Assembly: GCA_964016885.1 (NCBI GenBank)
Contig: OZ024745.1
Coordinates: 121,458,001-121,522,000, forward strand
Direction: 5' to 3'
DNA length: 64,000 nucleotides
From: Eledone cirrhosa
Taxonomy: Eukaryota
The translations under genes were made by a program, and so were the position numbers. The notes below the pieces were generated by a model that worked only from the letters and a program-made list of their open reading frames with translations, had not been told where the DNA came from and made no database searches. Positions 14,232 to 34,060 of this stretch are shown here, one piece after another (positions within the stretch are counted from its first letter, which is position 1; the number at the start of each line of letters is the position of its first letter).

Positions 14232-14920
14232 CAAAGGTCCCCAACCATTGGGCCTTGGACCGGTACCGGGCCACAAAGAAATAATTAACTTGTTTAAAAT
14301 TATATAATAGATAAATTGAATATTGGACTTTTAATTTAAAGAGATTTAAGTAATTTTGAAAACCATACGATGCAATAGAAAATCAAAAGTGCTAAGATAA
14401 CAAAAGAAACTTACTTCAGCAAATTTAATAATCCCAAATATTTTCGGGTTTAAAAACACACTTGTTAGGAAGGCAGATTTAAGTTAAATCTGCCTTCCTA
14501 ACAAGTCATCTCCGATCGATCCTTTCGATCCTTTAAGTCTCTCACAAGGATACTCCCTTGATAAGGGGTTTTTAAACCTGAAAATATTTGGGATTATTAA
14601 ATTTGCTAAAGTAGGATTCTATTGTTGTCTTGGCACTTTTGATTTTCTAATGCATTGTATGGTTTTCAAAATTATTTATATTTATCTTCCAATTTAACAT
14701 TGCTTCAAGCAAACTACAACACTCTGTTAAAAAGATTTGTTTAAATATTCAATATTCATATACTCAATACATTTTTTCTTCCCTTTAATAAATTGCTCTT
14801 TTTATTATTGCCCTCTTTATCGAACTGCACTTAAATAATACATATGTGCAACTACCGGTCCGTGGAAAGATTGTCCAGCATGAAGTCGGTCCTTGGTATA
14901 AAAAAGGTTGTAGACTGCTG
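14232..14920. mobile_element. hAT (Charlie-like) non-autonomous element with a nested palindrome
   Basis: Ends CAAAGGTCCCCAACC ... GGTTGTAGACTGCTG; perfect 8 bp TSD ATGTAGAG (14224-14231 and 14921-14928). Confidence 0.85.
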
Positions 14921-15406: not shown

Positions 15407-15523
15407 ATACTTTGGGAGGGTCATGCTGCCAATAAAAACACATGCACCTGTTGGTTTTCACTTCAATTTATTATAAGTTTCCTGTTGGCTGGTTGGTTTG
15501 ATAACCAGAAGGTTATTTATATA

Positions 15524-15571
15524 TTGTCAAAGCTCTTTCGTCACACATTCTGTGACCTCCTCAGTGACTAG
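15524..15571 (-). ncRNA. Minimal (Penelope-type) type I hammerhead ribozyme candidate
   Basis: Minus strand: GUCA-CUGAGGA-G-GUCACA gaaug UGUGAC-GAA-AGAGCU-U^UGAC. Confidence 0.6.
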
Positions 15572-16047
15572 GTTTTTATTTTGTGTCTTTCCTTCGTTCT
15601 GTCCTACACTATCTATAGGATAAGATCATTTGTTTTGTGGATTAGGTTTTTCATATATATATATATCTTAGTCTTAGGTTCTTCCACGCCTTTCAGCACA
15701 TCGGTCATTAAGTAATTGCCGATGATCACAATCAGCAGGAGCGTTTTCGCTTCCATGCCAAGTGATTTTGGCTGCCATCAGGCTTACACACACACACACA
15801 CACATACACACACACATACATATACTCACTCATGCATGCACACACACACACATATGGAAGATAAGAAAAATCAGTTGGAAATGATTTACAAGTGGTTGTG
15901 ATGTTAAGTTTTGATGTTATAGTAAATAGTTATGTTTTTACTTAGTATAATTTCTTACAGAGATGCAACATATGTATAGTTTCTTATTAGTGTGAGTGTG
16001 AGTGTGAGTGTGAGTGTTGGGAAGTGAAAGTGACTGTGGCTGTTATG

Positions 16048-23898: not shown

Positions 23899-25305
23899 TT
23901 GACAAAGAATGAATTCCAGCTTGGTTCCTTCATTAATACGGTGTATACATTTAGTGCTGACATCAGAATGGAGTTTGTATTAAAAAAGTGTGGTGTGTTA
24001 ATCTTGAACAGAGGCAAAATTAAAAACACTGAGGGGTTGGTGCTGCCATCAGGAAAGGTTTTGAAGGAAATAGAAGAGGAAGGTTATAAGTAGTTAGGGA
24101 TATTGGAAGTTGATCAGATAATTTAGGAGGAGATATATGAGTGGTATCACTCCTTAGATATTGGGTGGGGGTGATCACATGGACAGTGGAAGAGCTAAAC
24201 AGCTTAGACTGAAAAACAAGAAAGATGTTGACTAGATATGGGAGTATTTCACCCAAAGATCGACACAAACAAATTATATGAACCAAGAAAAAGAGGAGGA
24301 AGAGTATTGATAGGGTGTGAAGACAGCATTAGAACAGAAGAAAATAACATGGTGGGGTACATAAAATATTCCACAGAACCACTGTTGCTGGAAGTAAGAA
24401 GGTCAGAGAATGTGCAAAATAGAAGATTGAAGAAAAAACACAGTACAAACATTTGAAGATGGATGAAACTGAAAGTAGATGGATGTTGAAGATAGAACAG
24501 ACAGAGAAAAGGTGGTTATGGATGGCTAAAAGTGATATAAAACCAGAAACAGGAGCCTTAATCTGTGCTGCTCAACAACAAGCACTAAGAACTAACTACA
24601 TTAAGCATAGAGTAAACCACACAGCAGACAGTGATAAGTGAAGACTTTGTGGCATGAAACTGTATGGTATATTACCAGTCAATGTATGTCACTAGCTCTG
24701 AAGGAATATAAGAGATATCACGATAACATAGCAAGGATGGTCCATTGGGCACTTTGTGGCAAATATGTACTTGACAGAGCAGAAAAGTAGTACAAACATA
24801 ACCCTGAGGGCGTTATTGAAAATGATGATGCAAAGATCCTGTGGGACTTTGTGATACAGTGTGACCATGAGATTGAACATAGGAGACCAGATATTGAATT
24901 AATTGAAAAAGAAAGCAAACTCTTAGATCAGCTATAACCTCTCCAGCTGATAAAGTATGTGATAAAGATAGGGAAAAAATTGATATATACGACAGGTTAG
25001 CTTGGGTGGCTAAGCAGTTGTGATCACTGAAGAAGATGGTAGTAATACCAACAATAGTTGGAATCTTAGGAACAGTGGGTAAAGATCTTGATAAGTACAT
25101 TAAACAAATAGGGATTGCAATATGGATAAAACACTTACAGAAGACATCATTGCCTGTTGGAACAGCTTGAATACTCTGGAGGGTACTCAAAAAATAAGGG
25201 GTAGGGGGGGGGGGGGGGTACCTCAGTTCACTGGTAGTGCACCACTAACACTCTAATACATCTCCAGCATTAGAAGCTGAGAGAAAAAAACAATAATAAT
25301 AATAA
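23899..25305 (+). mobile_element. Degenerate R4/Dong-clade LINE (RT C-terminus, zinc knuckle, RLE)
   Basis: FSADIRMEFVLKKC, HPKIDTNKLYEPRKRGGRVL, ETGALICAAQQQALRTNY, ENDDAKILWDFVIQCDHEIEHRRPDI; (AAT)n tail. Confidence 0.85.
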
Positions 25306-25639
25306 TGGTGTCTACTATAGGCACAAGGCCAGCAATTTGGGGAGAGGGAAAAGTCGATTAAATCGACCCAGTGCATTACTGGTGCCTTATTTTATCGATC
25401 CTGTAAGGATGAAAGACAAAGCTAACCTCAACGGGATTTGAACTCAGAACGTAAAGGGACATAACTATGCTGCAAAGCATGCTATCTAACGCTCTACTGA
25501 TACTGCCAAAATAATAACAAAGCTGATGTACATAGGTTGTATATCTCAAGGTGGACGGGGGCCCCAACAACTAGAAACTGCATACAAAACAGCAACCATT
25601 GGATTGGATAGCTACCTCCACCACACCCAAGAAGATAAA

Positions 25640-26138
25640 AAAAAAGCTAAGCATGTTCTGCAACACAAGGACCAAAGGCATGAGGTGTTCAGGATTGCAA
25701 GACAATGTGTCAGGGAAAATTGTGATGTCATTGGGGAGATGTAATGGGATCCCAGGCTGGTTATCAAAGAATGTAGCTTTCATATGTAGCCAATGCAGAG
25801 GTGCAGTGAGTAGCAAGAACCCACAGGCTATGAGCTCCTTCAAATGCACAGACAGCTCTGTAGAAATAGTTGACAGTTATGTTACCTGGGTGGCCAAATC
25901 AGCAGTGGAGGAGAGTGTTCCAAAAGTACAGTAGCCAGAGTAAGAATAGGATGGAAAAAGTTCAAAAAGCTACTAGCACTGCTAACTACAAAAGGATTTT
26001 CCCTCAAAATGAAGCAAGGATTGCATGATGCATGTATATGAACAGCAATGTTGCATGGTAGTGAGACCTGCACGCTATGTATAGAGGACCTGGGAAGATT
26101 GAAAAGAAATGAAGCCTGCATTCTCCAATGGATATGTA
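25640..26138 (+). mobile_element. Degenerate RTE fragments
   Basis: DQRHEVFRIARQCVRENCDVIG; RIGWKKFKKLLALLTTKGF. Confidence 0.8.
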
Positions 26139-26139
26139 A

Positions 26140-26232
26140 TCTATATATATAAAACTGAGGATGTCTGTCTGTGTGTGTGTGTGAGTTTGAATCCCTAAAA
26201 CTAGAGAAGCACCCAACTGACTATTTTCAAAC
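26140..26232 (+). mobile_element. Helitron 5' fragment
   Basis: A|TCTATATATATAAAACTGAGGATGTCTGTCTGTG, nearly identical to the 5' end of the 46556-47182 element. Confidence 0.75.
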
Positions 26233-26389
26233 CTCCCAGTTCCACACTGTAAATGTGGTTGGTGTTAGAAAGGGCATCCAGCCGTAGAAAGTCCGCCAGA
26301 CAGTCCTATGCGAGCTAGACAACCACTCTTGCCTCAAGTGGGAAAACTCCCGTCCAAACCCATGCAAGCGTGGAATATGGACGTTAAAC

Positions 26390-26422
<33 letters not shown>

Positions 26423-26456
26423 TATAAGATCAAAAGATGGTTAAAAGAGTTCCATG

Positions 26457-26527
26457 TATTTTATTATGTGCATTTCAAAAACAAATATCATCATGGGATG
26501 ATACTTGCGTTCTCATCAGATAAAATA
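26457..26527 (-). ncRNA. Type I hammerhead ribozyme candidate
   Basis: Minus strand: UAUUUUAU-CUGAUGA-16 bp stem II (one mismatch, CCAU loop)-GAA-AUGCACAU-A^AUAAAAUA. Stem I is a perfect 8 bp. Confidence 0.78.
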
Positions 26528-26605
26528 GGGAGACATGATATGAAGTTTAAAAAACACTTGCGAGCAGTGAAGTGTTAAATCTACATATGAAAAATAAAAT
26601 AAGAT

Positions 26606-26648
<43 letters not shown>

Positions 26649-26800: not shown

Positions 26801-26981
26801 CCAAATACACATATATGACTATGACAGTCATTTAAGAGAAGGAGGGTAGTGGGGTTGTGTGAGAATGACAGGTGGTGAAGGAGGGAGAAAAGACGACACC
26901 CATATCATCTCTAATCATTTATGTATTGTTTCATTTACTTTACGGGGGTGAAATCATTTCCTTTGCTTTCCCTGTATTAAG

Positions 26982-27055
26982 ATGGAACCTCTGTGGCTCT
27001 TCTGCTGGACCCTTCTTCTCTTGGCCCCAATCTTGCTGGCCTTTTTCATCTACAA
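26982..27055 (+). CDS. FAXC: FAXC coding exon 1 (signal anchor)
   Basis: ATG directly after a pyrimidine tract and aag acceptor; donor aa|gtaag; phase 2 matches the next exon. Confidence 0.75.
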
Positions 27056-30000
27056 GTAAGAACACTTTCAGAATTATCAAATATTTCATGTGCATTCTAG
27101 TTTGTCTGTTTGTTTAATCTCCTGATCAACCCTGATCAAATAGACCTGCCATCAAAAGCATTCCAGCTGTGAATATACCGTGACTTTAGGTGTAGCTAGG
27201 ACTGCATTATCTAATATGTCTATTCCTTTTTCTAAGACAGTAATTTTTGATTTGAGGGAGAATTAGCTGCTATTTCTAGCATGTTGAGCGACGGCATTAA
27301 ACTCACCTGTTAGATTGTGATATTGTTATTGTTAATGATGACAGCGGTGGTGGTTGTGTTTTTGGTGGTGTTTATCATACTGAGTAATTGCCCTTCAGAG
27401 TATTTCAGCCCAGGCATAACTGATGAAACACATGCCCAGTAACCAGCATATGTATATTTATATAAGGTAATAAATTAGCAGAGTTTGGGATAGAATGTCT
27501 TACAGTATTTGAGTTCAAATCCTGTTGACGTCATCTTTGCTGTTCATCCTTTCAGGGGCAATAAACAATGTACCAGTCTAGCAAAGTGGATTTGCAGAAT
27601 TGCTAGAGCATCAGACAGAAGCCCTTGTACTGTCTGTTCTGACCTTTTGCTTTATAATGGTAACACATGTAACCTCACTGGTTCCATGTTGTACAGGTCT
27701 TTCCATTTCCCTTAGACAACATCAGTCGTCAGTGGTATAGAGAGGGGAAACTTGCATGCATAGGCAACTGCTGATCTTCAAAAAAACCTTGCCTAAGCCT
27801 GTGTCTTAACCCTTTACCATTTACATTACTCTATATTTACTATTATATTTTCATGGTAAACACTTTATCTCATAATTATCTTACATAATATCAAATCTAT
27901 GAGATTTTGATATTATTCATTTTGAGAACAATACCTTAATGTCAGTATGAGCAGCTGGTTACAACGGGTTTAAACAGAAAGGAGTGAGAGAATTCTGGCC
28001 AGATATGGCCAGTTTAAATGCTAAAGGGTTAAAGAGGAACTTTCCATGTACAGACCCATGATCTGATCATTGAGACAAATTCTAAGCTTAACTAATAAAA
28101 CGTTGCTGATACTAAATAGAAGTTGATAAAGATTTGTAATCCCACAAATACTTTATAGTTCACCGAAAACTAGTTCCAGTCCAGGTAATCAACAGATTAA
28201 GAACATTTTAGAGCAGTAGAGATGATATAATAGTATATTAAATATCAAATGATACATATTATATATAAATATAGTAAAATAAATATATAATATTTATTTA
28301 TACATAGTATATATTATATTATTTATATGTTGGCAGAATCGGTAGAGGGTCGGACGCCATGCTTTGATGCATAGAGTTACGGCCCTTGCCATTCTGAGTT
28401 CAAATCCTGCCGAGGTTAACTTTGCCTTTCATCCTTACGGGGGTCGATAAAATAAAGTACCAGTAATGCACTGGGTAATTGCTGGCCTTGTGCCAAAAGT
28501 AGAAACAATTATTTATATATATCAATTAATGATTTTATTTATTATATATTATTTACAATTTGCATGTAGGCAGGTCTCTCTGGAAATAGGGGTTGGGGGC
28601 AGTGAAGGTATTTTGTGGCCATGAGGGGGGGGGGGGGGGGGGGGGCACAAGTTTGAGAACTTCTATTTTAAAGCCTAAATACAAACTTACAATTTTTTTG
28701 ATGAGGCTTTATCGACTCAGTTATTGCAACAGTGTAAAGAATGATACTAAAGAAGAAATGATGAGTACTATCTTAAAAATGATCAATAAATACATACTAT
28801 AGCTTTTTGACTAAATAATACATACACAAATCGCAAACACAAGGTTCTAAAAACCTTCGCTAATGGCACGTGGCTTAGTGTTTAGGGAATTGAATTCACA
28901 ATCATGAGGTTATGAATTTGATTCCCAGACTGGGCAGTACATTATGTCCTTGAGCAAGAAACTTTATTTCAAGTGGCTCTTTCTTCCGGGAGTTGCTATC
29001 ATTAGATAGTATCAACAATGGAAAGACAAATGGAAACTTTGTTTCATTGGTCTGATTTGATGAGTTTCACCCAACTCTGTAAGCAAGTGAGGTCTGGGAT
29101 CTTGTCAATCATTTTCCTCGTCCATCATTGACCCAGAACATAGATGTATGTGTAGTAGCAAGTACTGTGAAATAAGAAGCAACTCCCAATAACTACTACA
29201 ACAATTCAGTTTTGATATTTTGTTACATATATTTTATATACACCACTCATATCATTGCTCAATAAATGAATATCATGTCATGCTATTTTCCTCTGTTGAA
29301 AATATATACCCTGTTAACCGATTAGTTTTAATGGATGGAATTACTTAGAAAACCCACTGTGAACTAACAGTTGTCAATGTAAAGTATCTTTAATTTCCTT
29401 TCATTCAGGATTGTACCCTACTTTAAATTTAGTGAAATTCTTTATTGACCATAACAAATTGAGTGTTTGTTATTACCTTGGGGCTGAAAAAAATTTCATT
29501 ATACTGAAAAATTTGTTATAATGGTATTCGTTATAACAGAATTTTACCTGTATAATCAAAAATTTCTAAGTTTTCTTTTCTATAATCTTAAAGTATCATG
29601 TTGATTATGCAGGTGTTTTAGAATCAGCGATGAAAAAGGAGGGGTGAGGTGGGGTCACTATAAACCCCTTCCTTCCCCTTGAAAGTGAAAAATAGAGGAA
29701 CACTCTTTTCTCCCAATCCCCACCCTACCCTCCATTATTGTCAAGTTTTGATACTTAATCCTTTAGCATTTAAACCAGCTATATCCAGCCAGAATTCTCT
29801 CACCTCTTTATCTTCAAACTGGCCACTCATACTAATGTTAAGGTATTGTTCTCAAAATAAATAATATCAAAATCTCATAGATTCGATAATATGTGAGATA
29901 ATTATGTGAGATAAAGCCCTTACCATGAAAATATAATAGTAAATATAGAGTAGTGTAAATGCTAGAGGGTTAATCTAATGCTGAAAATACTTGTCTGTCT

Positions 30001-33502: not shown

Positions 33503-34060
33503 ATCTACACATGTTTGTGTGTGTATTTTGCTTGGCAATAGAGGGAAACCTCATCTTGATTAATTATTCTATATTTTGAGTACTTTCTTCTTCTCATTTA
33601 TAAATTATGAATTCAAATTTACATAATTATTTCACAGGAAATATTTCCAGAAAAAGCATGTAATTCCCAAAAATACTGTATTGCTGTATCAAATGGGACG
33701 TGGCCCTTATGCACCAAGTGTATCACCATTTCCATTGAAATTAGAGACATATTTACGGATGGCTAACATACCATATATGGTCTGTATGTTTTATTTTAAC
33801 TAATTTCTTTTTTCGGGGGGGGGGGGGGGGGGGGGGCTCTGGTAGCCATTACATGATCTCTCATCAACAGTATCTTGTTACAGTGTGTTTTTAACACTGT
33901 TTCCTGGTATCTAATGAAATATTTATGTGTCTCCATTGAACCCATAACTCCCGATGAAGTCGTAGAGGTTTTGTAGTAACTTACGCCGTACCTTAGGCAT
34001 TCTTTGAAACCTAACAGAGGAGCCCATCCCCTCTCCAGGTCCGAACACAACTGGTTTCTT

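What the first reader, a model, noticed from the sequence alone, without database searches (positions are those of the whole stretch)
26457..26527. Hammerhead 2: perfect 8 bp stem I and 16 bp stem II, about 450 bp upstream of the FAXC ATG
Stem III AUGCACAU is one transition from the palindromes AUGCGCAU or AUGUACAU, typical of dimer-dependent minimal hammerheads. The site is AUA, with cleavage predicted between 26465 and 26464. Stem II is unusually long. It probably lies antisense within the FAXC 5' UTR intron (inference).
Basis: partly seen in the sequence, partly recalled or inferred. Interest (0 to 1): 0.72.

Follow-up and report, generated by a model that had tools for sequence, protein, structure and literature searches.

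The report
Hammerhead from truncated Penelope retrotransposon end
This self-cutting-RNA motif is the leftover tail end of a very common jumping gene of a known kind, one of more than 17,000 near-identical copies in the genome, and this copy is likely an inert, mutated passenger beside the neighbouring gene.

Summary
The type I hammerhead is real: minus strand 26527-26457, intact core, 8-bp stem I, AUA site, predicted cut 26465/26464. Stem II has 15 pairs plus a C·U mismatch, not 16 pairs. The motif lies in a 193-bp remnant (26421-26613) of the 3' pseudo-LTR of a Penelope-like retrotransposon. Longer copies carry a reverse transcriptase plus GIY-YIG-type ORF with Hydra-clade motifs between two such repeats, and they insert in (TA)n. 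This copy is solo, has no partner in the window and is antisense to the FAXC-like gene, so it cannot cut that gene's RNA in cis. A spliced contig runs unbroken from 26860 through the ATG, which argues weakly against a 5' UTR intron. Hydra-clade hammerheads, including an octopus one, are published (PMC8557442). This scan noted Hydra-clade hammerheads before on other DNA of this genome. Cleavage was not tested. Verdict: new family member of a known kind, low interest.

The parts
26421..26613 (-). 5'-truncated remnant of the 3' pseudo-LTR of a Hydra-type Penelope-like element; ends at the family's short 3' end, no 85-nt tail, no ORF
   Evidence: 97-99% matches end at these coordinates; other copies continue upstream into 3' UTR and ORF; no other piece of the pLTR or ORF found in the window
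26520..26527 (-). Hammerhead stem I, 5' strand
   Evidence: each pair kept in 82-86 of 86 distinct copies
26513..26519 (-). Catalytic core CUGAUGA (3-9)
   Evidence: among 115 distinct copies the only frequent core variant is at free position 7
26477..26512 (-). Stem II: 15 pairs, a C·U mismatch at position 4, G·U closing pair, 4-nt loop (26496-26493)
   Evidence: mismatch is C·U in 85 of 86 distinct copies
26474..26476 (-). Core GAA (12-14)
26466..26473 (-). Stem III octamer AUGCACAU; family form is the palindrome AUGCGCAU; this copy differs at 26469
26464..26465 (-). A17 and predicted scissile bond after the AUA triplet
   Evidence: sequence; cleavage untested
26457..26464 (-). Hammerhead stem I, 3' strand
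26608..26645 (.). (TA)n run at the truncated 5' end; its first six bases also match an internal ATATAT of the element (microhomology)
26229..26420 (+). Unrelated repeat with an (ATG)n tail abutting the remnant's 3' end
   Evidence: matches in L012 and L025; a similar junction in L086
26860..27055 (+). First coding exon of the FAXC-like (GST-fold) gene, ATG at 26982; 5' edge is only the start of one contig
33638..33779 (+). Next exon of the FAXC-like gene, joined to exon 1 in frame

Best explanation
The motif is the hammerhead of the 3' pseudo-LTR of a high-copy Penelope-like retrotransposon with Hydra-clade motifs, left here as a 193-bp truncated solo copy that is likely an inert passenger. 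Shown: sequence, family, flanking ORF in longer copies, tandem layout, (TA)n flanks, variant counts. Inferred for the parent element: a transcript spanning pLTR-ORF-pLTR holds two hammerheads 3.3-4.4 kb apart; their AUGCGCAU palindromes would pair into an 8-bp intermolecular stem III, so the pair would cut after AUA, probably slowly and perhaps helped by the element's own protein. Inferred for this copy: reverse transcription primed at a nick in a TA run started at the short 3' site and stopped after about 190 nt at an ATATAT microhomology (a later deletion between that ATATAT and the TA run would look the same). A CpG transition then, most likely after insertion, broke the palindrome. With no partner, a weakened stem III and the wrong strand for the neighbouring gene, it is predicted not to cut.
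For: Family: 42 scored matches, 41 of them at other places, at 97-99% from 1610 candidates; exact 30-mer counts 16,733 AUGCGCAU, 399 AUGCACAU, 421 AUGUGCAU, 171 and 176 for two non-CpG transitions, 6 double. CpG rate is 2.4 times non-CpG and symmetric. AUGCACAU sits on several different subfamily backgrounds. Parent ORF up to 760 aa with RT-type and GIY-YIG-type motifs; 204 homologues, of which five were scanned: two hit GIY-YIG and one RVT_1. Direct pLTR-ORF-pLTR in 5 of 8 loci examined (loci chosen for long ORFs or same-strand pairs). Hydra motifs DKT, CxCX5C, no cysteine pair inside GIY-YIG, CxxC and CxH near the end, (TA)n flanks (against PMC8557442 section 11). All 9 frequent changes in stems I and II toggle Watson-Crick and G·U pairs. 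Rare changes per site are similar in core (1.45), stem II (1.62) and flanks (1.67), as neutral decay predicts. Predicted homodimer energy -10.5 against -0.3 kcal/mol.
Against: No cleavage or locus-specific RNA data. Pfam gave no hit on the parent ORF itself and Rfam none on the motif. Clade is from motifs and by-eye comparison, not a tree; RWK reads RWI here. Almost no two-sided covariation; related copies are not independent, and A/G toggles could also come from RNA editing of a hairpin. This copy could still pair in trans with a majority copy at -5.1 kcal/mol. Some published Hydra hammerheads have a mismatched centre in stem III. Opposed arms share the same rare stem III change more often than chance (10, 18, 6 and 8 of 100 listed sites against about 1.1, 1.1, 0.5 and 0.5), so some broken palindromes were copied or converted, and this change may predate insertion.
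Confidence: 0.86

Rival explanations
1. The remnant has been co-opted at the FAXC-like promoter: an upstream antisense transcript is cut here (alone or paired in trans with an abundant family RNA) and this tunes the gene.
For: It lies about 330 bases from the start of the exon-1 contig; core and stems I and II are intact; family sequence is present in run X4, which behaves like RNA (155 records); heterodimer energy -5.1 kcal/mol.
Against: With more than 17,000 copies, one per about 170 kb, some will lie near promoters. The copy is 97-99% like others, so it is young. Its one clearly non-subfamily change is the palindrome-breaking one. The X4 records cannot be assigned to this locus or strand.
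Confidence: 0.05
2. One reading: the hammerhead sits in a 5' UTR intron of the FAXC-like gene and bears on its pre-mRNA.
For: A pyrimidine tract and AG precede the ATG at 26982, so a minor upstream exon is possible in other tissues.
Against: The only X4 record on exon 1 (1 of 5 laid) runs unspliced from 26860 to the donor and on into exon 2, with no loose end before 26982. The ribozyme is on the other strand, so it is not formed in the pre-mRNA.
Confidence: 0.04
3. It is a monomer of a non-autonomous retrozyme or of the family's two-armed miniature element rather than a truncated autonomous copy.
For: A miniature palindromic derivative of the same pLTR exists (L085-L098), and animal retrozymes are proposed to derive from pLTRs (10.64898/2026.07.22.740005, abstract and introduction).
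Against: No tandem unit here. The miniature copies are only 85-93% like the long-tailed reference copy L013 and start about 25 nt inside the window copy's 5' end, whereas the window copy is 97-99% like ORF-linked copies.
Confidence: 0.04
4. Chance match in AT-rich DNA.
For: No Rfam hit; modest fold z-scores.
Against: 0.055 looser hits per shuffled window; fixed position at the end of an RT-endonuclease element; pair-preserving subfamily changes; variation at core position 7 only.
Confidence: 0.01

Closest known systems
Hydra clade of C-terminal-endonuclease Penelope-like elements, including Hydra-1_Obim of Octopus bimaculoides (Craig et al. 2021, PMC8557442; passages, section 11 and parts of the supplement read)
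   Same: Single RT plus C-terminal GIY-YIG ORF, DKT, CxCX5C linker, no internal CCHH, (TA)n target, sense-strand type I hammerhead near the 3' end, tandem and inverted copies, optional tail.
   Different: A different family: neither its hammerhead motifs nor its C-terminal peptide motif were found in the supplement. Stem II is 15 pairs against 3-7 in the 26 Hydra rows of File S2; the triplet is AUA whereas all 26 rows have GUH; unit 3.3-4.4 kb against mostly under 3 kb; tail 85 nt against 30-40.
Minimal and palindromic-helix-III hammerheads of metazoan PLE pLTRs (Cervera and de la Pena 2014, PMC4209133; parts 1-2 of 4 read)
   Same: Type I, in pLTRs, mostly solo genomic copies from truncated elements, palindromic helix III, larger than usual helix II; monomers inactive and dimers weak in their tests.
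   Different: Helix II about twice their 7-8 bp; helix I 8 bp against 4-5; G·U or A-U in place of the usual G10.1-C11.1; no extra base after position 9.
Poseidon element PAc of Anolis (Frangieh et al. 2024, PMC11167929; parts 1-2 of 4 read)
   Same: Two fixed 3' ends separated by a tail, AT-rich targets, pLTR hammerhead.
   Different: Other clade. There the ribozyme needed the element's protein and was dispensable for insertion in vitro; neither is tested here.
Metazoan non-LTR retrozymes (PMC7229834, passages)
   Same: Type I hammerhead, dimer-assisted cleavage when helix III is weak.
   Different: Retrozymes are tandem 170-400 nt non-coding units; this is a solo end of a coding element.

Membership tests
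Type I hammerhead ribozyme | Core CUGANGA ... GAAA ... UH | tested here: met
   AUA is a natural though slower triplet (PMC1636495 abstract)
Type I hammerhead ribozyme | Stems I and II paired, open at stem I | tested here: met
   pairs kept in 80-86 of 86 distinct copies, one fixed mismatch
Type I hammerhead ribozyme | Stem III able to form (stable hairpin or palindromic dimer) | tested here: inconclusive
   family -10.5 kcal/mol as dimer; window copy -0.3 as homodimer, -5.1 as heterodimer, +4.7 as 2-bp hairpin
Type I hammerhead ribozyme | G10.1-C11.1 closing pair (usual, not obligatory) | tested here: not met
   G·U in 51 and A-U in 35 of 86; natural departures exist (PMC3088659 passage)
Type I hammerhead ribozyme | Self-cleavage at the predicted bond | not testable with these tools
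   no assay; only contigs were available
Penelope-like element (endonuclease-positive) | RT plus C-terminal GIY-YIG-type endonuclease in one ORF | tested here: met
   in longer copies; motifs read directly, Pfam hits only on homologues, none on the ORF itself; the window copy has no ORF
Penelope-like element (endonuclease-positive) | Direct pLTRs flanking the ORF, inverted truncated copies, optional tail | tested here: met
   5 of 8 loci with pLTR-ORF-pLTR; 24 divergent inverted pairs within 5 kb among 100 listed sites (counted by hand); 44 long-tail, 60 TA-run and 10 other ends among 114, overlapping loci counted twice
Hydra clade | DKT in place of DKG | tested here: met
   HSDKTN in L058, L059, L105
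Hydra clade | CxCX5C linker, no CCHH cysteines inside GIY-YIG, CxxC and CxH around the conserved E and N | tested here: met
   read in L036, L058, L059
Hydra clade | RWK motif near the N-terminus | tested here: inconclusive
   RWI at the matching place
Hydra clade | Insertion in (TA)n | tested here: met
Hydra clade | Groups with Hydra in an RT tree | not tested
   no labelled reference proteins were available to the tools; by-eye comparison with the supplement alignment only
Neptune / Nematis clades | CX2-5CxxC linker and CCHH in the endonuclease | tested here: not met
Non-LTR retrozyme | Tandem non-coding units each with a hammerhead | tested here: not met
   solo copy; family is ORF-linked

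The most novel reading that the evidence does not exclude
This family's hammerhead is a distinct architecture: the fixed C·U mismatch four pairs up the very long stem II replaces the loop as the docking or protein-binding site, so the element's own RT-endonuclease can activate it without a perfect palindrome. The frequent sharing of palindrome-breaking changes by both arms of one insertion would then record RNAs that were copied despite a broken stem III, making this 17,000-copy family a natural test of whether Penelope hammerheads matter for transposition in vivo.
Probability: 0.12. Interest if true: 0.5.

Novelty: new member of a known kind. Interest (0 to 1): 0.17.

Why it matters
As a single locus it matters little: solo pLTR hammerheads are the commonest form of these motifs in animal genomes (PMC4209133), and an octopus Hydra element with a hammerhead is in print (PMC8557442). 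What hammerheads do for Penelope elements is still called unclear in that paper. This large, young family, with counted stem III variants and two-armed insertions, would be good material for that question, but the family offers this, not the window copy.

Tried and rejected
Rfam at gathering and at E<=10: no hammerhead. Neptune assignment, my first guess from the linker cysteines: dropped after the Hydra definition. AUGUACAU as a compensated subfamily: 6 seen against about 10 expected, rejected. L068 as a pLTR-ORF-pLTR example: its upstream hammerhead belongs to a separate miniature insertion, dropped. A bulged distal extension of stem I: one of its five pairs is broken in 28 of 86 copies, not claimed. 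Pfam on the parent ORF: no useful hit. Sequencing runs: no RNA holder listed. X1 has no cover over most of exon 1, uninformative. No contig ends listed at the predicted cut, uninformative because contigs cannot show ends. Earlier findings near this place and by sequence: none. Lunse et al. on dimer-cleaving PLE hammerheads is not held; seen only as a reference in a review. Searches for octopus or cephalopod with hammerhead, Penelope or ribozyme returned PMC8557442 as the only relevant paper; this family may be in Repbase or Dfam, which could not be searched.

Full report
Observation. The minus strand reads stem I 5' (26527-26520), CUGAUGA (26519-26513), stem II (26512-26477), GAA (26476-26474), AUGCACAU (26473-26466), A17 (26465) and stem I 3' (26464-26457). 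Stem I is 8 perfect pairs. It was the only hit of a strict descriptor in the window, against 0.055 looser hits per shuffled window (200 shuffles). The 71-mer folds at z -2.72. Rfam does not detect it.

It is a repeat. A search of the own genome (about 3.0 Gb; octopus-like by inference from the element's relatives and its microsatellites) gave 1610 candidates and 42 matches, the 41 at other places 97-99% identical. Homology to the window stops at 26421 and 26613. Other copies continue upstream through about 1 kb of non-coding sequence into an ORF end. Exact 30-mer counts are 16,733 for stem III AUGCGCAU, 399 for the window's AUGCACAU, 421 for the mirror CpG change, 171 and 176 for two non-CpG transitions and 6 for AUGUACAU. 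These six total 17,906, a lower bound for the family.

The parent element. A search with the ORF end gave 124 scored matches at 79-100%. Longer loci hold ORFs of up to 760 aa with RT-type motifs (FDIASYY, ITMGASDS, YRDD; motif labels recalled) followed by a GIY-YIG-type end. Pfam did not hit this ORF; of five homologues scanned from 204 found, two hit GIY-YIG and one RVT_1. Five of eight loci examined (L058, L104, L106, L107, L108; chosen for long ORFs or same-strand pairs) show pLTR-ORF-pLTR in direct orientation, 3.3-4.4 kb apart; the upstream pLTR carries an 85-nt tail that leads into the ORF start. Among the first 100 listed majority sites I counted 24 divergent inverted pairs and 4 same-strand pairs within 5 kb. 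Copies end either at the short site, mostly in a TA run, or after the tail. This is the layout described for Penelope-like elements (PMC8557442, Fig. 2 legend).

Clade. Craig et al. define Hydra by DKT, RWK, a CxCX5C linker, no CCHH, CxxC and CxH near the end, a canonical hammerhead and (TA)n targets. All are met here except RWK, which reads RWI. Their supplement lists Hydra-1_Obim with a hammerhead. By eye that protein aligns with this one but is a different family, and motif searches for this family in the supplement found nothing. No tree was built. Against the 26 Hydra hammerhead rows, this family differs in its long stem II (15 against 3-7 pairs) and its AUA triplet (all 26 are GUH). AUA occurs in a natural viroid hammerhead and was the slowest of four triplets there (PMC1636495 abstract).

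Is the fold selected? In 86 distinct copies (134 hits, anchored on the core) each stem I and II pair holds in 80-86 copies and the mismatch is C·U in 85. In 115 distinct BLAST-collected copies, nine stem positions vary in five or more copies, and all nine switch between a Watson-Crick and a G·U pair on the ORF-sense strand; the only frequent core change is at free position 7. A coin-flip null gives about 0.002, but the copies are related, two-sided changes are almost absent, and RNA editing of the hairpin could give A/G toggles too (a lead from an earlier scan note). Rare changes are as dense in the core as in the flanks. So source lineages appear to keep the fold and inserted copies decay freely. 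Stem III counts are biased by my choice of loci; the genome-wide counts are the ones to use.

Mechanism. Inferred from published work: PLE hammerheads with palindromic helix III were inactive as monomers and weak as dimers (PMC4209133), and the Anolis PAc hammerhead cut only with the element's protein and was dispensable for insertion in vitro (PMC11167929). Here two AUGCGCAU copies would form an 8-bp duplex at -10.5 kcal/mol; the window's octamer gives -0.3 with itself and -5.1 with a majority copy. The change is a CpG transition, 2.4 times commoner than non-CpG ones and found on several subfamily backgrounds, so it is recurrent. No second piece of the pLTR or ORF was found in the 64 kb. The copy is therefore predicted not to cut. 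Against this: opposed arms of one insertion often share a rare stem III change (10, 18, 6 and 8 of 100 listed sites against about 1.1, 1.1, 0.5 and 0.5 by chance; hand counts), so such changes are sometimes copied or converted, and the window's may predate insertion.

The neighbouring gene. The ATG is at 26982 and exon 1 joins exon 2 in frame. No run is on record as RNA, but one contig of X4 covers 26860-27056 unbroken and continues into exon 2, so it behaves as spliced RNA; it is 1 of 5 X4 records laid, and none enters at the candidate acceptor before the ATG. This suggests the remnant lies upstream of the transcript, though a contig cannot fix a start and one sample cannot exclude a minor exon. 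Being antisense, the ribozyme would not form in the gene's RNA anyway. Family sequence is present in X4 (155 records), without locus or strand.

Verdict. A real hammerhead motif, explained as the truncated end of a Hydra-type Penelope-like element: a new family of a known kind, with a longer stem II than the listed relatives. The Hydra reading was set before the scan's notes were opened; later notes on other DNA of this genome agree. Interest 0.17.

Noticed in passing
L085-L098 (e.g. G000:C1:5077300-5078300): A miniature two-armed palindromic derivative of this family, about 430 bp in (TA)n: two pLTR arms meet about 75 nt upstream of stem I, one ending at the short site and the other after the 85-nt tail; 85-93% like the reference copy L013, with its own stem II variants.
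   Followed up: partly
G000 listings: Both arms of an inverted pair often carry the same rare stem III change (5, 9, 3 and 4 pairs per 100 listed sites), about ten times chance or more: either both arms were copied from one RNA or they were converted.
   Followed up: partly
window 15510-15575, minus strand: Another type I hammerhead-like motif (core at 15564, 6-bp stem II after one extra base) of a different family; a relative sits in L031 at 3758.
   Followed up: partly
window about 14550-14595, plus strand: Minimal hammerhead-like motif with the U3/A8 core variant and a 6-nt palindromic stem III.
   Followed up: no
L036 (1700, 1807, 6450), L049, L051, L061: Other hammerhead families in flanking DNA, some also with stem II of 11-12 pairs and self-complementary stem III, so long stem II is not unique to this family in this genome.
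   Followed up: no
window 26229-26420 and L086: An (ATG)n-tailed repeat abuts the short 3' end of the pLTR here and at a second locus, suggesting shared microsatellite targets.
   Followed up: no
window 24020-26140: Decayed fragments that translate like non-LTR retrotransposon reverse transcriptase ends (recalled resemblance).
   Followed up: no
L031 and L034: Endonuclease ORF ends of other Penelope-like families lie next to copies of this family, one in L031 joined directly to its 3' UTR.
   Followed up: no
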